Source: an uncultured Oscillospiraceae bacterium (GTDB taxonomy: Bacteria; Bacillota; Clostridia; Oscillospirales; Ruminococcaceae). From it: DNA of 55,182 nt. Position numbers and translations under genes: made by a program. This document shows positions 5,571-19,595 of this stretch, piece after piece. The notes beneath the pieces are model-generated. The model ran no database searches and was not told the DNA's origin. It worked only from the letters and a program-made list of their open reading frames with translations. Positions within the stretch are counted from its first letter, which is position 1. Every line of letters starts with the position of its first letter. Location of the stretch: contig CAYUOH010000013.1 in the NCBI GenBank assembly GCA_964446385.1, forward strand, positions 1 through 55,182, in the 5' to 3' direction.

Positions 5571-6503
5571 ATGAATGAAATGAAGGAAGATTTAATCGCT
5601 CCATGCGGGATGAACTGCTCTTTATGCAGCGCTTATCAATTCGGAGAATATGATTTAAACAGACATGGGTTTCACAAAAAATACTGTTTAGGCTGCATTC
5701 CGAGGGGAGAAAACTGCACACATATGAGAGATGCGTGCGAATTGCTGGCAAAAGGTAGCATCCGTTTTTGTTATGAATGTAGAAGTTTCCCATGTAAAAG
5801 GCTGAAAGCATTGGATAAGCGATACTGCACGAAATACCATATGAGCATGATAGAAAACATCAACTACATCAAGGAATATGGAATTAAAAATTTCATAGAT
5901 AAGGAGCGTGACAAATGGCGCTGTCCGGAGTGCGGAGCGACCATATGCTGCCACAACGGACTATGTTTGAATTGTAATATAGATACGCTTATGACGAATA
6001 AAAAATACAGGTGGGAAACGGGTAAAAAACCGGAGACTGAAATTATGGAATCAACCAAGGAACAATTACTTAGAAATCCTGATACAGAGCCGACTAGCGA
6101 CGTTATTGCAGAGGCTCTTAAGGATGCAAATAACGTCTATATAAAGTTTATATCCGAACTTGCAAACCATGGTATTCAGATGGAATGGCGTTACTATAAC
6201 GACGGCAAGGCGTGGCTGGCAAAAGGACTTTATAAGTGGACAGGTGCAAGAGGAGGATATAAAGAAAATACTGTTTTTTGGTTATCGGTTTGGGACGGAT
6301 TTTTTAAAGTGGATATCTATTTCCCAGAAAAATCCCGTGCTGATGTATTGAGTCTACCGCTTGATCATAAGTTTAAACTTATTATAGCGGACTCAAAACA
6401 AATGGGGAAACTGAAATACTTCCCTCTTGTTTTTGAACTCTGTTCGGATGAAATGTTTAAGGCAGTTTTCCCACTTATTGATTTCAAGATAAGCTTAAAG
6501 TGA
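5571..6503 (+). CDS. DUF3795-like Cys-rich domain protein with a C-terminal extension
   Basis: Cys cluster CGMNCSLCSAY...CLGC...C..C..C matches the DUF3795 pattern and is shared with the 7405 paralog; AAGGCGG SD before the ATG at 5571. Confidence 0.6.
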   Translation: MNEMKEDLIAPCGMNCSLCSAYQFGEYDLNRHGFHKKYCLGCIPRGENCTHMRDACELLAKGSIRFCYECRSFPCKRLKALDKRYCTKYHMSMIENINYIKEYGIKNFIDKERDKWRCPECGATICCHNGLCLNCNIDTLMTNKKYRWETGKKPETEIMESTKEQLLRNPDTEPTSDVIAEALKDANNVYIKFISELANHGIQMEWRYYNDGKAWLAKGLYKWTGARGGYKENTVFWLSVWDGFFKVDIYFPEKSRADVLSLPLDHKFKLIIADSKQMGKLKYFPLVFELCSDEMFKAVFPLIDFKISLK

Positions 6504-12472: not shown

Positions 12473-12702
12473 TATTTCATTTGCGTTTATACTTCCTGTC
12501 AAGATGATGCCGATGATTGAACCTGCCAGGTAATCGGTGCAATCCTTACAAAAAGTCACATAAAATAATGAAAGGCAACTCCAAGAACTGCGCTCCCTCG
12601 TTTTTCTGTGGTGACTTTAGGGGTCAGGATATTTAATTGTCGAAAGAAAATATTGCGAGAATTTTGTAGCTTTGAACAACACTTGCGCTGTTAGATTCTA
12701 GT

Positions 12703-14121
12703 TTAAAACCCCTCGCTGATTATCAGATTACCATTGCCTGCGAATTTCGATGCTGCATCATACTTATGCCAAATCTGATATGTCACGCTGTAACCCTTGC
12801 AGGTAATCTTTACTGTATATCTTGCAGTGGGATCGTAGGAGAACATTTGATTAACATCTATGGAGAGATGCGTTTTTCCACCTCCCAGATCATCGTTGAG
12901 ATTAAAATACTGAATTTGTGTGATATCTAGAGGTACACCATTTCTACTTACTTCATAATCATAACTCAGGTAATGATTATTGCTTTTGGTGCGAATGTAA
13001 ATACTATAATGCCCCAAATTTGGTTGATCAATTTCTTCTACTCCGCCAAAGATATGACAGCTTATAGATCTCATTTCTTCCACAGGCCCGACAACGACTA
13101 AATCGAAAGCCATCCCGTCCATGTTATCTTCAAATTTAGCGTACTGGGTTTCATCTACAAATACCTTTTTCAGAGACCTGCAATCAACAAGAGGTGCGAT
13201 ATCAACAATCTGCGTACCGCTAATACACAATTCTTTCAACCGTGAAAGATTTTCGATGCCGGAAATATCTCTGATGGGATTTCCTGTAAGATCTAAATAT
13301 TCAATGTTGCGCAGTACCCAGAGCGGGCTCGCATCGGTAATCAGATTCGCTGCGACAGTAAGTTCCTTTAAATTCTTCAGTTGTGAAAAGTCGCTAACGC
13401 TTTCGATGCTGCCAAAATGTGCAGTACTCTCATTTCCGTGAAAAAAAACGGCCGGATTCTTCTGATGGTTCTCGTAGTCTATCTCTGTCCCAATGAACGA
13501 AGTATCACTGCGTTGTTCATCCACGCTTTCCCCATAAAGATAGACATGCTCAATATCCGACATTCGTCCGGAATATCCTAATTTTGCGAGCAGTGAATCC
13601 TCAGATACTTTCGCTCCGACCTGCGTGGCGAGAACTACAGTGAACGCAACTGTGAGCAATATGACTCCGCTTAGCCCCCAGGTCGTCCAACTAGCCGCGC
13701 GTTTTTGAGCAGTAGTAACCTGAAGATTCCGCATAAGTGTGGAAAAGACAAGTTTGTCCAGAAAGGCTTCCTCGGAAGCACAATCATGCCGTAAAATCCC
13801 TTGCTGCGTATTTAGCAGCAATCGCTGCGTGGGCGTAAGGCTGACTGGAGCAATATGCACAACCAAGAGAGGATTATTCATCTGAACAGCATATGTGATA
13901 GTTCGGTTGACCTCGTAGTTTTCTAATGCTGCAGGCGATAAAAGGAGCAAAACAAGAGCAGACTTTTTGATACGCATTTTATCAAAACGTGTACTCGGCC
14001 AGACTTCATATCCCTTATCCCGTAAAGCCAAGAGCACCTTCATTACATATTCACTGTCTTCCGGTGCGAACATCGCATAGACAAACGGTTTGCCATTTCC
14101 AGAATAAGGTTTGAACTCCAT
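12703..14121 (-). CDS. membrane protein: N-terminal divergent TIR domain, 1 TM helix, C-terminal leucine-rich repeats plus a beta-rich domain (472 aa)
   Basis: The N-terminus PFVYAMFAPEDSEYVMKVLLALRDKGYEVW aligns to the TIR fold but the FISY/CE motifs are degenerate; TM at about aa 148-168; internalin-type LRRs (LKELTVAANLITDASPL..LDLTGNPIRDISGIENLSRLKELCISGTQIVDIAPL); AAGGAGG SD 12 nt after the upstream gene stop. Confidence 0.7.
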   Translation of the reverse strand: MEFKPYSGNGKPFVYAMFAPEDSEYVMKVLLALRDKGYEVWPSTRFDKMRIKKSALVLLLLSPAALENYEVNRTITYAVQMNNPLLVVHIAPVSLTPTQRLLLNTQQGILRHDCASEEAFLDKLVFSTLMRNLQVTTAQKRAASWTTWGLSGVILLTVAFTVVLATQVGAKVSEDSLLAKLGYSGRMSDIEHVYLYGESVDEQRSDTSFIGTEIDYENHQKNPAVFFHGNESTAHFGSIESVSDFSQLKNLKELTVAANLITDASPLWVLRNIEYLDLTGNPIRDISGIENLSRLKELCISGTQIVDIAPLVDCRSLKKVFVDETQYAKFEDNMDGMAFDLVVVGPVEEMRSISCHIFGGVEEIDQPNLGHYSIYIRTKSNNHYLSYDYEVSRNGVPLDITQIQYFNLNDDLGGGKTHLSIDVNQMFSYDPTARYTVKITCKGYSVTYQIWHKYDAASKFAGNGNLIISEGF

Positions 14122-14132
14122 ATTCTCCTCCT

Positions 14133-15269
14133 TTACTCGGTCACTACCACTTCAAAGTTACCGGTAATTATATCCGAAACATAAGGCACCATATCAAGGC
14201 TTACATAGAGTTTCTGTAAGCCCGTCATTTCCAGAGCAGGTGATAAATCTGTAATACCGGTGTGTGAGAGTTTTAGAACTGAGATATTGTCCAAACCGGA
14301 AAGAGGCATCAAATCCTTAACATCATTACCGGAAAGATCAAGGTATGTTAGTTTGGTAAGATTCTGTAGCGCCGTCAAATCAGTAATGTTTTGATAACAG
14401 ATCGCCAGCTCATTGAGATTGATCAGTTTGGAAATGGCGGTCAGGTCGGAGATATCGCCACGCTGCACCGCTGTACCGCCGACGCAAAATGCGCCGTTCT
14501 GATAATCGATTCCGCTGCGAGTGGTTACAAACGCGTTTCCGCAACAGTAGAGAGCTTCACCGCTAGTCTGAGAGATAATAAGATCACGCATCATCGTACT
14601 GGACCAGGTGGTCATCTCAATGATCTGTGCGCTTTCTTCCGAATTGCCCGGGGTGACGGCCAAAGTCGTCGTGGTTAATCCGGGTTTCTCGCCAAACCAG
14701 CCGCGCATATATCCCAACAGTGCAACGCCGAATACTACAGCCAACGCGATACCGACTATTCCGACGATCAATGCTGTGTTCAGGTGTTTGGGGTTTGGAT
14801 CACGCTCAATTTCATAGCCTTCCTTGCCGTCTCCGATCAGTTCATTTTGCAACGCACCGGATTGAATGAGCCTTTCTGCGGTATCAGCAGCTATGCTACC
14901 CGCAGTAATATTTGTCGCGGGCGAAAGCTGCATCTTCATTCCCGGTGGCATCGGTGCGTCGTCCATGCACACACATGCCATCGTCTTTTTCGCATCAACG
15001 GCGAAATTGATTTCCCGCTCGCAGTTACGGTTTGTGTTGAAATTTTCTGACGGAAAGAATAGCACGACGGTAGCGTTTTCAAGATGATTGGCGATAAACT
15101 CTGCCCAGCGTGCGCCCGCCTCGATGCCTTCGTCGTACCAGACACGATATCCGCGTTTGTGTAGTTCCTCCGCAATCGGTAACACCGCAACGCTGTCCAC
15201 GTGTGCATAGCTGATAAAAATGAATGGTTTTTCTCCGCGGTAGACCGGAAACCTCGCTCTTGAAGCCAT
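14133..15269 (-). CDS. membrane protein: N-terminal canonical TIR domain, 1 TM helix, C-terminal leucine-rich repeats (378 aa)
   Basis: KPFIFISYAHVD...RVWYDEGIEAGARW...NCEREINFAV are the classic bacterial TIR motifs, including the putative catalytic Glu; TM IVGIVGIALAVVFGVALLGY; LRRs LTKLTYLDLSGNDVKDLMPLSGLDNISVLKLSHTGITDL. Confidence 0.8.
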   Translation of the reverse strand: MASRARFPVYRGEKPFIFISYAHVDSVAVLPIAEELHKRGYRVWYDEGIEAGARWAEFIANHLENATVVLFFPSENFNTNRNCEREINFAVDAKKTMACVCMDDAPMPPGMKMQLSPATNITAGSIAADTAERLIQSGALQNELIGDGKEGYEIERDPNPKHLNTALIVGIVGIALAVVFGVALLGYMRGWFGEKPGLTTTTLAVTPGNSEESAQIIEMTTWSSTMMRDLIISQTSGEALYCCGNAFVTTRSGIDYQNGAFCVGGTAVQRGDISDLTAISKLINLNELAICYQNITDLTALQNLTKLTYLDLSGNDVKDLMPLSGLDNISVLKLSHTGITDLSPALEMTGLQKLYVSLDMVPYVSDIITGNFEVVVTE

Positions 15270-15465
15270 TTTCCTTTACCTCAATATTATTAAAATCCTG
15301 TATATGATTGTCAATGGCTGAACAGATATGATATTGCATTCCACGGTGTAACCAAGTACATCATTTCAGAAGCGATATGTGCTCGCTCTGCTTTATGCAG
15401 ACATTCCACGAGTCTACCATAGCGTGCGTATATTTTTAATACTATTATATCTAGAAAAACTTATA

Positions 15466-15494
15466 ATTGAAAGGGTTGCACTTTAATGCTATAT
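15466..15494 (+). promoter_or_regulatory. candidate sigma-A promoter TTGAAA-17-TATATT for the HD/RyR operon
   Basis: Hexamers with a 17-nt spacer about 95 nt upstream of the start at 15590, in the divergent intergenic region. Confidence 0.35.
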
Positions 15495-15589
15495 TTCTGT
15501 TAAAAGAAATATTCACTTTTATGGTAGCTGAATAATAATCGTTATGTATTAATGTGGCACTAACCCGCAATAAGGAAGGAGTTCGAGAA

Positions 15590-17617
15590 ATGAGTTATCG
15601 CGCGCTCAATAATATGCGAAATAAGAATCTTGATAAGTATCATTTGGAACACACAGTCCGAATTCCCCCTTTACCTGAGACAAAACGGAATTATGGCAAA
15701 GAGGCACTGCTTTTTATCCGCGACTGCTGTGAAGACCTAAAATTTGACTATAGTACAGAATCACGCAGATCTTTTTCCGATTCTGACGGCAGAAGCGCCG
15801 GGAAAAACCAGATTCCATACAACATGGAGCGTGACCTGGATCGCCTCAGTTTTGAAGTGGCAATCGGGCGGTTTCTCTCCTCCGGTTCAAAGGAGGACGC
15901 ATTTGATATCTATTATTGCTACTGCGAGATTTTCAAGCCGTTTGGCACAGGTTATGATTCCACGGGGTTACTGCTGGAACTTTTGAGCGAGCACGAATCC
16001 AATGCAAGTTCGCTTCTTATGAAGCATCGTGACCATTATTCTCACAGCGTATATGTTTTCCTTATCGGGCTTGTCATCTACAAGAATCTATCTTCATTTC
16101 GGACAGCTTACAACAGTAAGTACGGATTTAAGGACAGCAAAGAAGCCTCGTGCCATTTTCTTGAGTATTGGGGACTAACCTCTCTGTTTCACGATGTCGG
16201 ATATCCCTTTGAAATCGCGCATCAACAGATGAAATCTTATGTATGCAAACTGGATTCGAATAACAACGACGCCTTCGGTTTTTCACCATATGTGTCATAC
16301 CGTAATGTAGACGAGTTTGCGTTATCCAGGCTCGGCGATTTAAACGATTTTTACGCAAAAGCTATCATCGAACGCCTTTGCGAGGGTTACCTAAGCCACA
16401 CGGACATCGAACCCTATTATGCAGAGCACCAGCTTCAAAAGGCCCTGAAGGATCGCGCGATCCATGAAAATCCGACAGAAAAGGATTACCTCTACATGGA
16501 TCACGCTTATTTCAGTGGACTAATTATGGCAAAGACCTATCTCAAGCGACACAAGGAAATTGACCGCTATGAAATGTTGCCGCCTGCGGTGCTGGATGCG
16601 TTATGTGCCATAATTCTGCATAACAGCCTGTTTAAATTTACCATGCGCTCTTTTTTACACACGCAGGAACCTCTGCGCCTCTCCGACGGGCAGCCCCTCT
16701 GTTACCTGCTGATGTTTTGCGATGAGTTGCAGTGTTGGGACAGAACCTCCTATGGGCAGAACAGCCGAAATGGTATTTACGCGTTTGATTTTGATCTGGA
16801 GTTTACGCGTGACGGAATGCGCTGGATTTACTATTATGACCAAAGTTACGAAAGAAAGGTATTGAATGCGAAGTCATACGCCGACATGCTCTATGATGGG
16901 TATAGGAAAAAAACAGGCGCAGTGCGGAACGGTCGCAGCAGGTTTGTGGACGACATAGATGAAATCACCTTCATCCGAGACATCGTTACAGCATTTGAAC
17001 CGAATGTGAATACGCCAGATCCCAGTGCAATTATAGAAACTCGTATCGAAAAAAAGCAGAAGCGCACGGGACTGTATCTTTCTGATAGCAATTATCTCAA
17101 CCTATATTCTTTTGCCCTCGCTCTTAACGGGCGCTACGCAGGTGCCAAAACTGTAGAGCAAATGAAAACAGCCTTTGAAGAAAACCTGTCGCTTGAATAT
17201 AAACTTTCCAATATTGCGCAAGCAAAGGGATTTGCCGCGCAGTTGGAGTCAATCGACTGTTTTTATACCGACCGAGCGGTTGATTATTTACCCGTGACCG
17301 ATTTTCATGCGCTTACACAGGAAAGGGGACACGAGAACGACCTTATGAAAATAGCCGTTGCGGAGCATGAACGCTGGTGCAAAGAGAAGTGCGCAATGGG
17401 TTGGGATTACGGCACCGCTCATGTTGAAGCTGACATACTGCCCGACGGCAGTAAAATGAACGACAACGAAATGCGCGAGCGCACAAGGCTGCACCACGAC
17501 ATAACTGACTTTGACCATCTGGATGCGCAGGAGCATTTTAAGGACTCCGATCCGATGGAACATATGCTGGAGTTGATTCGAGAATACGACGGGCTGACCA
17601 TTTATCGCACCGAATGA
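15590..17617 (+). CDS. HD-domain phosphohydrolase fused to a C-terminal RyR (ryanodine-receptor-type) domain, 675 aa
   Basis: HD signature H(RDHYSHS)...LFHDVGYP...D; C-terminus AEHERWCKEKCAMGWDYG...HHDITDFDHLDAQEH matches the RyR-domain consensus (HE.W...GW.YG). AAGGAAGGA SD before the ATG at 15590; the ORF-track start at 15554 is less likely. Confidence 0.7.
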   Translation: MSYRALNNMRNKNLDKYHLEHTVRIPPLPETKRNYGKEALLFIRDCCEDLKFDYSTESRRSFSDSDGRSAGKNQIPYNMERDLDRLSFEVAIGRFLSSGSKEDAFDIYYCYCEIFKPFGTGYDSTGLLLELLSEHESNASSLLMKHRDHYSHSVYVFLIGLVIYKNLSSFRTAYNSKYGFKDSKEASCHFLEYWGLTSLFHDVGYPFEIAHQQMKSYVCKLDSNNNDAFGFSPYVSYRNVDEFALSRLGDLNDFYAKAIIERLCEGYLSHTDIEPYYAEHQLQKALKDRAIHENPTEKDYLYMDHAYFSGLIMAKTYLKRHKEIDRYEMLPPAVLDALCAIILHNSLFKFTMRSFLHTQEPLRLSDGQPLCYLLMFCDELQCWDRTSYGQNSRNGIYAFDFDLEFTRDGMRWIYYYDQSYERKVLNAKSYADMLYDGYRKKTGAVRNGRSRFVDDIDEITFIRDIVTAFEPNVNTPDPSAIIETRIEKKQKRTGLYLSDSNYLNLYSFALALNGRYAGAKTVEQMKTAFEENLSLEYKLSNIAQAKGFAAQLESIDCFYTDRAVDYLPVTDFHALTQERGHENDLMKIAVAEHERWCKEKCAMGWDYGTAHVEADILPDGSKMNDNEMRERTRLHHDITDFDHLDAQEHFKDSDPMEHMLELIREYDGLTIYRTE

Positions 17618-17671
17618 TTTTCTGAATTTAATATAAATCCCTCTGTAAATGCGCTGTAGAAAGGAGTATGT

Positions 17672-19318
17672 GTGGGCATCCCGATTGTTGTCGGCGTAAC
17701 CGGCCATCGCTCACTGCGAACGCAAGATCTTTCGATGCTGCGCGCAGTTGTTTCAGCACAGTTGGAAAAGTTGATTGTTTCATACCCGAATTCCCAGTTT
17801 GTCATGTTGAATTCTATTGCATCCGGCGCGGATACTCTCTGCGCAATGGTCGCACTGGAACTGGGAATACGGCTGATTTGCCCGTTACCTATGCCGATTG
17901 AAGAGTATCGCAAAGATTTTACCGGCACGGACGCGACTTCATTTGATGCGCTGATTCTGCAGGCCGAGCGCCTTTTTGTTGTACCTGATAACGGTTTGTC
18001 TCCAAATCTTACGAGGGATGAGCATTATATGAACTCAGGCAGATACATCGCAAGGCACAGCTGCCTGCTTCTTGCTCTTTGGGACGGAATGCCCGCTAAA
18101 CCGGACGGTTGTGGAACGGCGGAGACTGTATCTTTTATGCTCGGTGCCAGCGACGAAGCGACTACCGGCTGCCTTAAAGCAGCGAACAATGGCGCGGTTC
18201 TCCACATATATACGCCTAAGCAAGGAGAAGAGTGCGAATTACAAAATCCATCTGTCCGTCTTCTGGAAAACGTACCGGGCTGTCTGAAAAACACGCTGGA
18301 GACAATAGATACATTCAACACAGATACAAGGAGAATAGCCAGCGACGTTAAAAAGACTGAGCCGCTCATAACAAAGGGTATCCTTTCCGAGATGCCGGAA
18401 GACATACAGCAGCTTCATGAGGTATATCAGACGTCAGATAGCCTGTCACTTCGGTTTCAGGCAAGATACTTACATGCGATCCGATATTTATCTATATTCG
18501 GCGCGATGCTGGTGCTATTTTTCCTACTCTACGACGAAATGGAGAGTAATTTGTTTTTAATTTTATACGGGCTGCTGATCCTGTTTTATGTGCTGACTTT
18601 CGTGAGAATTCGTAAAAGCCAAGCGCATGAAAAGTACCTTCGTTACCGTATGCTCTCCGAAACGCTTCGCGTGCAATTTTTTCTCTGCGCAGCCGGATCA
18701 AACGACAATGTAGCTGACGAATTTACCTGGACACAGAAGCAGGAAACTGCATGGATTAAGCAGACCATTTCGGCGCTGCTTATCGGTGAATCAGCAAGGC
18801 AATCGCTACCCGATGAAACGATTAATAAATTGTGGATTGAAGGTCAGCTTTCTTATCATGAAAGTGCATATCGTCGCTCCTTCGGTCAGCAACATATCCG
18901 TGAGACCACCGCAAATTGGGTGCTTGCTGCTACCTTTGCTCTCTTTATCCTTGTATTAGTGCTGGAGTTCACGTTTGATTCTGCCATGACAAAGACGCTG
19001 TTCCGGAAACCTTTCCCGCCTCTTATGCTCTATCACAGCGGACAAACGGTCACTCTCCGAAACCTTATGAAAATACTGCTCGGCACGGTTTCGGCTATAG
19101 CCGTGTTTTTCACTAATTATTACGGAAAACTCTCCTTGGGCAGAAAGAGTATCGACCATAACCGTATGGCTCACCTGTATGCCTCGGCGAAGGAACAGTA
19201 TGCATCCCAAAAAAATGATTACATGTCTCTTTTCATCGCGCTTGCACGCGAGGAGATCATCGAGATCGGCAACTGGTTTTCCTATAGCCGAGAGAATGCG
19301 CCTTCTTTTCAGATATGA
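17672..19318 (+). CDS. SLOG-like (LOG/DprA/YpsA-type Rossmannoid) N-domain fused to a C-terminal multi-TM (SLATT-like) region, 548 aa
   Basis: GTG start 5 nt after an AAGGAG SD; N-terminus IVVGVTGHR...SGADTLCAMVALELG...DGCGTAETV resembles the LOG-family GGxGTxxE and DprA GxD..AH motifs; four predicted TM helices after aa 250. Confidence 0.5.
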   Translation: MGIPIVVGVTGHRSLRTQDLSMLRAVVSAQLEKLIVSYPNSQFVMLNSIASGADTLCAMVALELGIRLICPLPMPIEEYRKDFTGTDATSFDALILQAERLFVVPDNGLSPNLTRDEHYMNSGRYIARHSCLLLALWDGMPAKPDGCGTAETVSFMLGASDEATTGCLKAANNGAVLHIYTPKQGEECELQNPSVRLLENVPGCLKNTLETIDTFNTDTRRIASDVKKTEPLITKGILSEMPEDIQQLHEVYQTSDSLSLRFQARYLHAIRYLSIFGAMLVLFFLLYDEMESNLFLILYGLLILFYVLTFVRIRKSQAHEKYLRYRMLSETLRVQFFLCAAGSNDNVADEFTWTQKQETAWIKQTISALLIGESARQSLPDETINKLWIEGQLSYHESAYRRSFGQQHIRETTANWVLAATFALFILVLVLEFTFDSAMTKTLFRKPFPPLMLYHSGQTVTLRNLMKILLGTVSAIAVFFTNYYGKLSLGRKSIDHNRMAHLYASAKEQYASQKNDYMSLFIALAREEIIEIGNWFSYSRENAPSFQI

Positions 19319-19595
19319 TTCAATCCAGGTCACGCGGTTGAGTCTAATCGAAGTGAAAAAGTTGATTGATCAGCAAATTAATGCTTATACCAGACAAGTA
19401 CTAAACTGTAAAACTATTACATACACTACGCTGTCACGGATTCCAGCCGGGTTGGACGTATTGCGGTATCTGATCGAATCAGGCACGAGCATTGGCCGGA
19501 TGACGGAGAAAACGTAAAAGATTGATTGAAGTTGACTATAATCATGCTATACTGGAAAAACAAAGGCCATAAAAAACGGTATAAGGAGTCAAAAA

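What the first reader, a model, noticed from the sequence alone, without database searches (positions are those of the whole stretch)
17672..19318. SLOG-like Rossmann domain fused to a 4-TM domain (putative ligand-gated membrane effector)
The N-terminal 150 aa carry LOG/DprA-like motifs (GVTGHR, SGADT..A..AL, DGCGTAETV). The C-terminal half has two pairs of TM helices, reminiscent of SLATT-type effectors that accompany nucleotide-sensing domains in conflict systems. The GTG start is only 54 nt after the HD-RyR stop and has a strong SD, implying co-transcription.
Basis: inference. Interest (0 to 1): 0.65.

Follow-up and report, generated by a model that had tools for sequence, protein, structure and literature searches.

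The report
SLOG-sensor membrane effector of TIR system
This gene encodes a membrane protein that joins a nucleotide-sensing SLOG domain to four membrane helices of the SLATT pore-forming type, and it sits with TIR immune-signalling genes, so it is most likely the cell-killing or membrane-leak effector of an untested Thoeris-like defence system.

Summary
ORF 17672-19318 (+) encodes 548 aa. It starts at a GTG, 5 nt after an AAAGGAG Shine-Dalgarno site and 54 nt after the upstream stop. All three quoted motifs and four hydrophobic helices are present.

- The AlphaFold2 model (pLDDT 88.9) has an N-terminal fold matching solved SLOG proteins (YpsA, DprA, ShosA, LOG, ThsA-SLOG).
- The family carries the YpsA-clade GxD motif (G52, D54).
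- The C-terminal half is a divergent SLATT/DUF4231 homologue, not just a look-alike.

The family is large and unnamed, with about 10,000 50%-identity clusters and relatives in at least 488 species genomes. Of 46 well-flanked loci, 37 have TIR-like genes nearby, 32 have the upstream HD-RyR gene, and only 1 has neither.

Two additional findings:
- The TIR partners look like receptors: TIR, then one TM helix, then LRR, WD40 or RHS.
- The upstream protein is a PDE-like HD hydrolase fused to a RyR Repeat12 domain. It keeps the four residues with which phage RyDEP binds and cleaves 2'/3'cADPR.

Best reading: a Thoeris-like pathway with a SLOG-gated SLATT membrane effector. This is a new variant of a known kind, and no function has been tested.

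The parts
17672..19318 (+). SLOG-4TM (SLATT-like) protein, 548 aa, GTG start
   Evidence: The ORF and its translation. 193 full-length homologues. AF2 model with pLDDT 88.9 and pTM 0.88.
17660..17666 (+). Shine-Dalgarno AAAGGAG, 5 nt upstream of the GTG
   Evidence: Read directly from the sequence.
17672..18271 (+). SLOG (YpsA-like) Rossmannoid domain, residues 1-200, predicted cytoplasmic nucleotide-signal sensor
   Evidence: Foldseek matches to YpsA, DprA, ShosA, LOG and ThsA-SLOG. Beta-alpha alternation in the model. Pfam YAcAr hits in 15/40 members.
17693..17710 (+). GVTGHR loop after strand 1 (residues 8-13), a Gly-rich loop with a conserved aromatic His12
   Evidence: At least 90% conserved. 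[quoted passage not shown]
17822..17836 (+). SGADT (residues 51-55) containing the invariant G52-x-D54 motif, the YpsA-clade GxD/E predicted nucleotide-binding signature
   Evidence: G52 and D54 are invariant in 40 sequences. The motif is defined in PMC6459960.
18104..18130 (+). DGCGTAETV (residues 145-153), a LOG-like GxGTxE loop
   Evidence: G148 and A150 are invariant. G146, C147, T149 and E151 are at least 90% conserved.
18398..18691 (+). First 2-TM module (residues 243-340): cytoplasmic helix, TM1 (268-287; 18473-18532), invariant YDE turn, TM2 (293-313; 18548-18610), basic amphipathic helix. This is the SLATT/DUF4231-matching region.
   Evidence: NCBIfam SLATT_3 matches residues 250-333 at E 6.6e-5. 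Family-wide, 32/40 members match. Pfam DUF4231 matches residues 265-343. Hydropathy and model helices agree.
18812..19294 (+). Second 2-TM module (residues 381-541): long helix into TM3 (415-434; 18914-18973), variable outer loop, TM4 (462-481; 19055-19114), conserved NYYGKLSxxRK and LAREEIIExGNW cytoplasmic helices
   Evidence: Hydropathy and model. SLATT_4 matches weakly at residues 464-523 and in 14/40 members. Conservation.
15554..17617 (+). Upstream partner: soluble HD (PDE-like) phosphohydrolase fused to a RyR Repeat12-type domain. It is 687 aa from the GTG, or 675 aa from the ATG at 15590 as called in databases.
17087..17614 (+). RyR/R12-like domain of the upstream partner (residues ~500-675 of the 675-aa form) with H593, W596, H635 and D652
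   Evidence: Alignment to phage DyoEdafos RyDEP (gp78): H75->H593 in 26/27, W78->W596 in 27/27, H100->H635 in 26/27, D117->D652 in 21/27. RyDEP residue roles come from PMC13232231.
14133..15269 (-). TIR-TM-LRR receptor-like protein, 378 aa. TIR is residues 17-108 with N82-C-E84-R-E86. The TM helix is at ~165-187. The LRRs are C-terminal.
   Evidence: Pfam TIR_2 at E 2.7e-19 plus LRR_4/LRR_8. PADLOC and NCBIfam ThsB-like hits. TM helix with KD 2.98.
12703..14121 (-). Second TIR-TM-LRR paralogue, 472 aa, with a degenerate TIR in which the Glu positions are Asn72/Thr74. TM helix at ~148-168.
   Evidence: Pfam TIR_2 at E 6.5e-7 plus LRR_4. Pairwise alignment to the first TIR. TM helix.
15270..15553 (.). 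Divergent intergenic region with promoter-like sites for both transcription units
   Evidence: On the - strand, TTGACA-17-AATAAT (11/12) at 15314-15286. On the + strand, TTGAAA-17-TATATT with TG at 15467-15495. These are consensus matches only.

Best explanation
The gene encodes the membrane effector of a Thoeris-like, TIR-based signalling system.

Shown: an N-terminal cytoplasmic SLOG domain of the YpsA-like clade is fused to a SLATT/DUF4231-type helical membrane domain with four TM helices. The gene is co-oriented and probably co-transcribed with an HD-RyR(R12) gene, and it lies next to two divergently transcribed TIR-TM-LRR genes. This linkage recurs across hundreds of genomes.

Inferred: on a trigger, the catalytically competent TIR converts NAD+ into an ADP-ribose-derived signal, such as a cADPR isomer. 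The trigger may be sensed outside the cytoplasm by the LRR, WD40 or RHS ectodomains. The signal binds the SLOG pocket formed by GVTGHR, G52-x-D54 and GCGTAE. The binding is relayed through the cytoplasmic helices to the TM helices, which oligomerise or open and make the membrane leaky. This stops growth or kills the cell before phage progeny are released.

Also inferred: the HD-RyR protein binds the same class of signal through its R12 pocket and hydrolyses it, either as a built-in off-switch or threshold setter, or as a second signal-activated effector.
For: SLOG fold: Foldseek matches YpsA, DprA, ShosA, LOG and the ThsA-SLOG/3'cADPR complex, on a confident model. The nucleotide-site motifs are invariant, including the YpsA-clade GxD/E motif (PMC6459960).

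SLATT homology: SLATT_3 matches 32/40 members, SLATT_4 14/40 and DUF4231 25/40. hhalign gives 99.2% to a Caballeronia plasmid protein that passes the DUF4231 threshold and is itself followed by TIR and WD40 genes.

Topology: four TM helices, with basic residues on the cytoplasmic side.

Gene neighbourhood: of 46 species loci with at least 5 kb on both sides, 24 have TIR-like plus HD-RyR, 13 have TIR-like only, 8 have HD-RyR only and 1 has neither. TIR domains were verified by Pfam in a sample. TIR-likeness of the remaining partners was shown by hhalign, at 99.1% and 93%.

Precedent: SLOG binds 3'cADPR in type I Thoeris. SLATT effectors (ThsH) respond to cADPR in type VII Thoeris. Type III Thoeris couples several TIRs to a SLOG effector (bioRxiv 10.64898/2025.12.03.692087). 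[quoted passage not shown]

HD-RyR partner: PDE-like HD fold, R12 fold and conserved RyDEP ligand and catalytic residues (PMC13232231).
Against: - No experiment exists for any member of this family.
- The window protein matches no Pfam or PADLOC model at threshold. Its SLATT_3 score is 23 bits against a cut-off of 45.
- No known Thoeris effector model matches.
- The two published candidates with similar domain content ('SLOG and 4TM') gave no defence in E. coli. They appear to be a different family.
- The window neighbourhood is housekeeping genes rather than a defence island.
- 9 of 46 loci lack a TIR-like gene within 8 kb.
- SLOG domains can also be enzymes, as in LOG, and the sequence cannot tell a sensor from an enzyme.
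- No solved SLATT structure was available to test the membrane fold.
- Extracytoplasmic sensor domains are unusual for phage sensing.
Confidence: 0.6

Rival explanations
1. The SLOG domain is a membrane-anchored enzyme rather than a sensor. It would be a LOG-like N-glycosidase, or it would process or generate the signal, and the 4-TM domain would only localise it next to the membrane-bound TIR receptors. The toxic output would lie elsewhere, for example in HD-RyR.
For: The LOG-like GxGTxE loop and Gly-rich loop are invariant. The SLOG superfamily includes true enzymes such as LOG. Viral YpsA-like SLOGs have been proposed to degrade cADPR-type signals (PMC9503650). The TIR partners are themselves membrane proteins.
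Against: The membrane half is homologous to SLATT/DUF4231 effector domains, not a simple anchor. It contains the most strikingly invariant residues outside the SLOG pocket: Y287-D288-E289, E432, R326, E330 and R333. Four TM helices plus about 200 aa of conserved cytoplasmic helices is more than anchoring needs. 13/46 loci pair only TIR with this protein, which leaves no other candidate effector.
Confidence: 0.13
2. The protein is a membrane sensor or scaffold, and the real effector is the HD-RyR hydrolase. The SLOG-4TM protein would recruit or activate it, or both would act as parallel effectors responding to one signal.
Confidence: 0.12
3. The system is not anti-phage immunity. It would be an envelope or extracellular-cue signalling module, for example for kin or contact sensing, stress-induced dormancy or cell-division control, in which the SLOG-gated channel modulates ion flux reversibly.
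For: The sensor domains are predicted to be extracytoplasmic (LRR, WD40, RHS after one TM helix). The window locus lies among housekeeping, transport and envelope genes. The closest solved SLOG, YpsA, affects cell division (PMC6459960). Acidic residues are invariant at the outer ends of TM1-3, which might suit a selective cation path. No homologue was found in the phage collection.
Against: Tandem arrays of 5-7 diversified TIR-TM-LRR paralogues (L004, L034) and patchy, horizontally spread distribution are typical of immune loci. The distribution spans Clostridia, Eggerthellaceae, Chloroflexota, Sumerlaeota, Methanobrevibacter and proteobacterial plasmids, and the cassette has a GC shift. In the held library's accounts of bacterial TIR signalling, all characterised TIR-plus-SLOG or TIR-plus-SLATT operons are defence systems.
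Confidence: 0.12

Closest known systems
Type I Thoeris effector ThsA (SIR2-SLOG) with ThsB TIR
   Same: A TIR gene lies next to an effector whose SLOG domain senses a TIR-made cADPR isomer. The BcThsA SLOG-3'cADPR structure is among the fold matches.
   Different: The output domain here is a 4-TM SLATT-like membrane domain, not a SIR2 NADase. The SLOG is N-terminal. No ThsA model matches. The TIR partners are TM receptor-like proteins.
Type VII Thoeris effector ThsH (SLATT) responding to canonical cADPR (Yirmiya et al., bioRxiv 10.64898/2025.12.03.692087)
   Same: It is a TIR plus SLATT-family membrane effector. The predicted action is oligomerisation into a membrane-breaching assembly.
   Different: ThsH is described as a SLATT protein in which the signal is thought to bind pockets between SLATT protomers. 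Here a dedicated SLOG domain is fused, there are four TM helices, and SLATT HMM scores are below threshold. Direct homology to ThsH was not tested, because no ThsH sequence was available.
Type III Thoeris (several TIR proteins plus a SLOG effector; van den Berg et al. 2024, as cited)
   Same: Multiple TIR-like paralogues are encoded with one SLOG-containing effector. Here there are 2, and in relatives up to 7.
   Different: No NCBIfam type III Thoeris model matches the SLOG-4TM protein. Only the TIR gives a weak ThcB4 hit, at 23.7 bits against a cut-off of 220. The effector architecture and the TM-receptor form of the TIRs differ.
'SLOG and 4TM' candidate Thoeris effectors (Streptomyces sp. 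GKU 895, Ca. Nitrospira nitrosa; Table S2 of 10.64898/2025.12.03.692087)
   Same: The same domain content, adjacent to a TIR gene. They were proposed as Thoeris effectors.
   Different: A proxy for that family was the gene upstream of a 60%-identical TIR in locus L094. It is about 361 aa, has a LOG-like GGGNSTMIAG motif and four compact Gly/Ala-rich TM helices, and shows no similarity to this family (hhalign prob 0.2%). The published candidates gave no defence in E. coli. This is analogous architecture, apparently with an independent origin.
Proteobacterial SLOG-DUF4231 proteins, e.g. WP_165106806.1 on Caballeronia sp. SBC2 plasmid pSBC2-4
   Same: It is a full-length remote homologue (hhalign 99.2%, E 6.8e-20, covering the SLOG domain through TM3). 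It is followed by TIR and WD40 genes.
   Different: Identity is only about 25-32%. It is annotated only as 'DUF4231 domain-containing protein'. It has no HD-RyR neighbour. It is equally uncharacterised.
Phage RyDEP / RyR Repeat12 (R12) domain family (PMC13232231), for the upstream partner
   Same: The same fold, and the same four ligand and catalytic residues that bind and cleave 2'/3'cADPR.
   Different: RyDEP is a small stand-alone phage anti-defence protein. Here the R12 domain is host-encoded, fused to a PDE-like HD hydrolase, and embedded in the TIR/SLOG operon.

Membership tests
SLOG superfamily (YpsA-like clade) | Rossmannoid alpha/beta fold superposable on solved SLOG proteins | tested here: met
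   Foldseek against the PDB: YpsA 2nx2 at E 5.8e-5 and TM(target) 0.62. DprA, ShosA, Moco-carrier protein, the LOG-like 1rcu and ThsA-SLOG 7uxs all match at prob 0.94-1.0. The model has pLDDT 88.9.
SLOG superfamily (YpsA-like clade) | GxD/E signature at the start of helix 2, and a conserved aromatic residue in the first loop (PMC6459960) | tested here: met
   G52 and D54 are invariant and lie at the N-end of helix 53-63. His12 in GVTGHR is at least 90% conserved.
SLOG superfamily (YpsA-like clade) | Match to a curated SLOG HMM above its threshold | tested here: not met
   The window protein has no Pfam hit. Pfam YAcAr matches 15/40 family members only weakly, with a best E of 3.6e-4.
SLATT / DUF4231 membrane effector domains | Hairpin of two TM helices flanked by cytoplasmic helices | tested here: met
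   TM1 and TM2 at 268-287 and 293-313, inside helices 243-290 and 293-316 and followed by helix 318-340. A second pair lies at 415-434 and 462-481.
SLATT / DUF4231 membrane effector domains | Sequence homology to SLATT-clan HMMs | tested here: inconclusive
   In the window protein, SLATT_3 scores 23 bits against a cut-off of 45, and SLATT_4 has E 0.017. Family-wide, SLATT_3 matches 32/40, SLATT_4 14/40, SLATT_1 4/40 and DUF4231 25/40. Transitive support: a remote homologue (hhalign 99.2%) passes DUF4231 at 30.9 bits against a cut-off of 24.7. That DUF4231 belongs to the SLATT clan is from my own knowledge of Pfam.
SLATT / DUF4231 membrane effector domains | Association with SLOG or SMODS domains or with nucleotide-signal generators | tested here: met
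   It is fused to SLOG. TIR-like genes lie within 8 kb in 37/46 loci.
SLATT / DUF4231 membrane effector domains | Signal-triggered membrane permeabilisation | not testable with these tools
   This needs toxicity and membrane-potential assays.
Thoeris (TIR-signalling defence systems) | A TIR-domain gene in the same locus as the putative effector | tested here: met
   In the window, two TIR_2 proteins at E 2.7e-19 and 6.5e-7. In relatives.
Thoeris (TIR-signalling defence systems) | A catalytically competent TIR (conserved Glu) | tested here: inconclusive
   The 378-aa TIR has C83-E84-R85-E86 where Thoeris TIRs in Table S1 show W/C-x-x-E. The paralogue has N72/T74 at these positions. The assignment is by sequence pattern only.
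Thoeris (TIR-signalling defence systems) | The effector belongs to a named Thoeris effector family (ThsA and the other named families) | tested here: not met
   No PADLOC hit and no NCBIfam Thoeris model. There is no similarity to the proxy of the published 'SLOG and 4TM' candidate.
Thoeris (TIR-signalling defence systems) | Phage-dependent signal production and anti-phage protection | not testable with these tools
   This is experimental.
RyR Repeat12 / RyDEP family (upstream partner) | R12 fold, with His and Trp bracing the ligand, a phosphate-binding His and a catalytic Asp | tested here: met
   Profile match to RyR3 R12 at E 9e-5. Foldseek to RyR3 R12, including AMP-PCP complexes, at prob 1.0. 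H593, W596, H635 and D652 align to RyDEP H75, W78, H100 and D117.
HD / PDEase metal-dependent phosphohydrolases (upstream partner) | HD-superfamily helical fold with H...HD...D metal ligands | tested here: met

The most novel reading that the evidence does not exclude
This is a membrane-integrated, Toll-like-receptor-style immune pathway of anaerobic bacteria and some archaea. Extracytoplasmic LRR, WD40 or RHS ectodomains sense a cue at the cell surface. Their cytoplasmic TIR domains make a cADPR-type signal. The signal opens a SLOG-gated SLATT channel. A host-encoded PDE-like HD enzyme, guided by a RyR Repeat12 domain, clears the signal. If so, the pairing of cADPR-type ligands with an R12 domain and a channel, long debated for animal ryanodine receptors, would have a prokaryotic counterpart. 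It would also be the first host-side signal-resetting enzyme for Thoeris-type signalling.
Probability: 0.25. Interest if true: 0.85.

Novelty: new variant of a known kind. Interest (0 to 1): 0.62.

Why it matters
The logic of a TIR signal generator plus a sensor-effector is established for Thoeris. SLOG-SLATT pairings were predicted from comparative genomics. So the basic idea is not new.

What is new:
- The family is very large, with about 10,000 50%-identity clusters and relatives in at least 488 species, mainly gut, rumen and digester Clostridia. It has no name, no model in Pfam, PADLOC or NCBIfam above threshold, and no experimental member.
- Its TIR partners have a receptor-like topology (TIR, TM helix, ectodomain) that points to sensing at the envelope.
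- It is frequently coupled to an HD-RyR(R12) protein that retains the residues phage RyDEP uses to bind and cleave 2'/3'cADPR.

The third point gives a directly testable hypothesis: bacteria encode their own signal-clearing enzyme for TIR signalling, analogous to ring nucleases in type III CRISPR. It also provides a bacterial context in which an R12 domain, a cADPR-type ligand and a membrane channel-like effector act together. For annotation, the result allows thousands of 'hypothetical proteins' to be labelled as SLOG-SLATT candidate Thoeris-like effectors.

Tried and rejected
- The Foldseek AFDB50 library was not available, so no predicted-structure neighbours were obtained.
- A sequence-profile search of the PDB with the family alignment found nothing meaningful. 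No solved SLATT structure could be used.
- Internal duplication of the two 2-TM modules: hhalign of residues 240-372 against 378-548 gave E 0.12 and prob 0.5%. It aligned only TM2-RKxxxHxKY with TM4-RKxxDHxKM. The idea is kept as a possibility, not a result.
- Retrieving the exact published 'SLOG and 4TM' effector: the exact Nitrospira TIR was not in the protein collection, and the contigs of its relatives were too short. A metagenome locus with a 60%-identical TIR served as a proxy. The conclusion that it is a different family therefore rests on a proxy.
- Burroughs et al. 2015 (PMC4678834) is not held. Its claims are cited second-hand through PMC7159879, PMC9503650 and PMC6459960.
- My iterated TIR HMM also labelled ~280-aa and >900-aa partners that Pfam does not call TIR. 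Profile-profile comparison showed their N-termini are TIR-like but degenerate. The neighbourhood counts therefore say 'TIR-like'.
- I first thought HD-RyR was more conserved than the SLOG-4TM protein. Over 37 loci the medians are equal, at 36.5% against 36.6%, because there are two HD-RyR subfamilies. I dropped that claim.
- The phage collection holds no homologue of the SLOG-4TM protein and one weak hit for the RyR domain.
- The literature search for DUF4231 plus TIR found no papers.
Full report
**1. The observation**

The window contains an ORF at 17672..19318 on the + strand, 548 codons, starting with GTG. The upstream ORF ends with TGA at 17615-17617. The gap 17618-17671 is exactly 54 nt. 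AAAGGAG sits at 17660-17666, five bases before the GTG. No terminator-like hairpin lies in the gap.

The three quoted motifs are present. GVTGHR is residues 8-13, SGADTLCAMVALEL is residues 51-64 and DGCGTAETV is residues 145-153.

A 19-residue Kyte-Doolittle scan gives four hydrophobic stretches at about 268-287, 293-313, 415-434 and 462-481, in two pairs. Basic clusters flank the ends expected to face the cytoplasm. These are RFQARYLHAIRY before TM1, RIRKSQAHEKYLRYR after TM2, RRSFGQQHIRE before TM3 and GKLSLGRKSIDHNR after TM4. The short TM1-TM2 turn is acidic (YDEMES).

The ORF is clearly a real gene. There are 193 full-length homologues at 35-76% identity, all unnamed or 'hypothetical'. 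In a 40-sequence alignment 31 columns are invariant. Homologues start at the same position (MGIPIVVGVTGHR), which supports the GTG start.

**2. What the protein is**

AlphaFold2 with the 40-sequence alignment gives a confident model, with pLDDT 88.9 and pTM 0.88.

*SLOG domain.* Residues 1-200 alternate strands and helices. Foldseek against the PDB returns only SLOG-superfamily proteins for this part. The matches are YpsA (2nx2, E 5.8e-5, TM 0.62 on the target), DprA from three species, ShosA, the Chlamydomonas Moco-carrier protein, the LOG-like TM1055 and the BcThsA SLOG domain bound to 3'cADPR.

The family's invariant G52-x-D54 lies at the start of the second helix, and His12 lies in the first loop. 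[quoted passage not shown] Aravind and colleagues describe the YpsA-like clade as the one that includes the cADPR-sensing members (PMC9503650).

No curated SLOG HMM reaches threshold. Pfam YAcAr is hit weakly by 15 of 40 members.

*Membrane domain.* Residues 235-541 are all-helical. Helices 243-290 and 293-316 carry TM1 and TM2. Helices 381-434 and 462-487 carry TM3 and TM4.

This half is homologous to SLATT/DUF4231. The window protein hits NCBIfam SLATT_3 at residues 250-333 (E 6.6e-5, 23 bits against a cut-off of 45) and SLATT_4 at 464-523 (E 0.017). Across the family, SLATT_3 is hit by 32/40 members (best 4e-7), SLATT_4 by 14/40, SLATT_1 by 4/40 and Pfam DUF4231 by 25/40.

There is also a decisive transitive link. 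A 577-aa protein on Caballeronia plasmid pSBC2-4 is annotated 'DUF4231 domain-containing protein' and passes the DUF4231 gathering score (30.9 bits against 24.7). It aligns to the family profile from the SLOG domain through TM3 with hhalign probability 99.2% and E 6.8e-20.

Whether the two TM pairs are a tandem SLATT duplication is unresolved (hhalign E 0.12).

*Conserved residues outside the SLOG pocket.* Y287-D288-E289 at the outer TM1-TM2 turn and E432 at the outer end of TM3 are invariant. So are R326/E330/R333 in the helix after TM2, S488/R491 after TM4, and the C-terminal LAREEIIExGNW motif.

**3. Size and spread of the family**

A profile search of 1.84 billion cluster representatives finds 9,989 proteins at E<=1e-3, 6,910 at E<=1e-10 and 2,187 at E<=1e-30.

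A scan of one genome per species finds relatives in at least 488 species. These are mostly Clostridia MAGs from gut, rumen and digesters. Others are Eggerthellaceae, Erysipelotrichaceae, Leptolinea (Chloroflexota), Sumerlaeota and a Methanobrevibacter.

More distant SLOG-DUF4231 relatives sit on plasmids of Caballeronia, Sinorhizobium, Agrobacterium, Methylorubrum and Streptomyces. No homologue was found in 50,697 phage records.

**4. Genomic context**

In the window the gene follows a 687-aa ORF at 15554-17617. Databases call this ORF 675 aa, from the ATG at 15590. Upstream of that lie two divergently transcribed TIR+LRR genes, at 14133-15269 and 12703-14121. The four genes have 44-48% GC against 37-39% in the flanks, which are housekeeping, transport and envelope genes.

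I called ORFs in 80 species loci and labelled them with HMMs seeded from the window proteins. Of the 46 loci with at least 5 kb on both sides:
- 24 have both TIR-like genes and the HD-RyR gene.
- 13 have TIR-like genes only.
- 8 have HD-RyR only.
- 1 has neither.

Three architectures recur:
- A five-gene operon: a ~280-aa protein, a ~390-aa TIR-LRR, a 1,000-1,280-aa LRR protein, HD-RyR, then SLOG-4TM. HD-RyR and SLOG-4TM often overlap.
- A TIR-WD40 protein of about 830 aa directly upstream of SLOG-4TM.
- Arrays of 5-7 TIR-LRR paralogues (L004, L034).

Pfam confirmed TIR_2 in sampled partners, including the TIR-WD40 and TIR-RHS forms. It did not call TIR in the ~280-aa and large LRR proteins. 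Profile-profile comparison shows their N-termini are nevertheless TIR-like, at 99.1% (E 1e-18) and 93% (E 3e-7).

**5. The TIR partners look like receptors**

The 378-aa window protein has TIR at residues 17-108, a strong TM helix at about 165-187 (KD 2.98) and then LRRs. The 472-aa paralogue has the same layout, with its TM helix at about 148-168.

Across the species loci, all 59 TIR+LRR ORFs and 37 of 45 other TIR-like ORFs have one hydrophobic helix at about residue 120-220.

The first paralogue keeps C83-E84-R85-E86, where Thoeris TIRs listed in Table S1 of Yirmiya et al. show W/C-x-x-E. The second has N72/T74 there and is probably inactive.

TIR needs cytoplasmic NAD+, so the likely topology is TIR inside and repeat domain outside. 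That is the logic of a Toll-like receptor with the domain order reversed. This is an inference; topology was not tested.

**6. The upstream partner**

The 675-aa protein has no TM helix.

*RyR Repeat12 domain.* Its C-terminal ~180 residues are a RyR Repeat12-type domain. The profile match to RyR3 R12 has E 9e-5. Foldseek matches RyR3 R12 crystal structures, including AMP-PCP complexes, at prob 1.0.

A May 2026 preprint shows that phage RyR-domain proteins (RyDEP) bind 2'/3'cADPR, and that the founding member cleaves it. In RyDEP, H75 and D117 form the catalytic dyad, W78 stacks on the adenine and H100 contacts the phosphates (PMC13232231).

I fetched RyDEP (DyoEdafos gp78, MN234187) and aligned it to the family:
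- H75 aligns to H593 (26/27 sequences).
- W78 aligns to W596 (27/27).
- H100 aligns to H635 (26/27).
- D117 aligns to D652 (21/27 Asp, 5 Asn).

So a host-encoded R12 domain with an intact RyDEP-like pocket, fused to a PDE-like hydrolase, is embedded in the TIR/SLOG operon.

**7. Mechanism**

*Shown:* the fold, the topology, the homologies, the conserved pockets and the gene linkage.

*Established elsewhere:* TIR proteins of Thoeris make ADPR-derived signals. SLOG binds 3'cADPR in type I. SLATT effectors respond to cADPR in type VII. Type III couples several TIRs to a SLOG effector. [quoted passage not shown]

*Inferred here:* the active TIR makes an ADPR-type signal. The cytoplasmic SLOG domain binds it. 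The SLATT-like TM domain oligomerises or opens and collapses membrane integrity. HD-RyR binds the same class of molecule and hydrolyses it, acting as an off-switch or threshold setter, or less likely as a second effector.

13/46 loci have TIR plus SLOG-4TM without HD-RyR. This argues that SLOG-4TM is the output and HD-RyR an accessory.

I put 0.6 on this overall reading. The rivals are a membrane-anchored SLOG enzyme (0.13), a scaffold for an HD-RyR effector (0.12) and non-immune envelope signalling (0.12).

**8. Comparison with what is known**

Nothing in PADLOC matches the protein, and no NCBIfam Thoeris model matches.

Yirmiya et al. list 'SLOG and 4TM' among 29 putative Thoeris effector types and tested two, from Streptomyces and Nitrospira. 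Neither defended E. coli. I examined the gene upstream of a 60%-identical relative of their Nitrospira TIR (locus L094). It is a ~361-aa protein with a LOG-like GGGNSTMIAG motif and four compact Gly/Ala-rich TM helices. It shows no similarity to the present family (hhalign prob 0.2%). The two therefore look like independent inventions of the same architecture, with the caveat that this rests on a proxy.

The closest true relatives are unnamed SLOG-DUF4231 proteins next to TIR and WD40 genes in Proteobacteria.

**9. Verdict**

The protein is a new, very large and uncharacterised variant of a known kind, a TIR-linked SLOG-sensor/SLATT-membrane effector.

Its context adds two features that I did not find described in the held literature. 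These are the receptor-like TIR-TM-ectodomain partners and the host HD-R12 enzyme with a RyDEP-like cADPR pocket. All functional statements remain predictions.

Noticed in passing
window 12703-15269 (- strand); also L004, L017, L025, L026, L034 and most other loci: The TIR partners have a receptor-like layout: an N-terminal TIR or TIR-like domain, one strong TM helix at about residue 120-220, then LRR, WD40 or RHS repeats. They are often in tandem arrays of 2-7 paralogues, of which apparently only some keep the catalytic Glu. This is Toll-like-receptor logic with the domain order reversed.
   Followed up: partly
window 15554-17617 (+), especially 17087-17614: The upstream protein is a soluble PDE-like HD hydrolase fused to a RyR Repeat12 domain. 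It conserves the four residues phage RyDEP uses to bind and cleave 2'/3'cADPR (H593, W596, H635, D652). That makes it a host-encoded counterpart of a phage anti-Thoeris enzyme, sitting inside a TIR operon.
   Followed up: yes
window about 12700-19320: The four-gene cassette has 44-48% GC against 37-39% in the flanking PAP2 and Usp regions. It is surrounded by housekeeping, transport and envelope genes rather than defence genes. This suggests a small horizontally acquired island.
   Followed up: partly
L040 9941-13253: Two SLOG-4TM paralogues (540 and 555 aa) lie in tandem, downstream of a TIR-RHS protein of 1,130 aa.
   Followed up: no
L026 11533-13095: A 520-aa protein directly downstream of the SLOG-4TM gene has a polytopic N-terminal membrane region, with several hydrophobic segments between residues 79 and 346, and a C-terminal TIR_2 domain (E 7e-19). 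This is a different way of placing a TIR at the membrane.
   Followed up: no
L099 (Methylorubrum plasmid pB146-1) 6001-8383: The tblastn match to this family's SLOG domain (30% identity, E 3e-7) spans 6001-6426. It overlaps a small annotated 'hypothetical protein' CDS (6178-6498), with no fused TM domain annotated after it. A TIR gene, a caspase-family gene and a second TIR gene follow immediately, which resembles type IV Thoeris with an extra SLOG component.
   Followed up: no
L094 2829-5426 (soil metagenome contig Ga0163163_10000077): This is a probable representative of the published 'SLOG and 4TM' candidate. It is a ~361-aa protein with a LOG-like GGGNSTMIAG motif and four Gly/Ala-rich TM helices, immediately upstream of a 463-aa protein with a C-terminal TIR. 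It is unrelated in sequence to the window family, so the architecture appears to have arisen by convergence.
   Followed up: partly
L010-L089, HD-RyR homologues: The HD-RyR partner comes in two subfamilies. One is ~660-710 aa and 58-80% identical to the window protein. The other is ~575-620 aa and only 25-37% identical. Both are found next to SLOG-4TM genes.
   Followed up: partly
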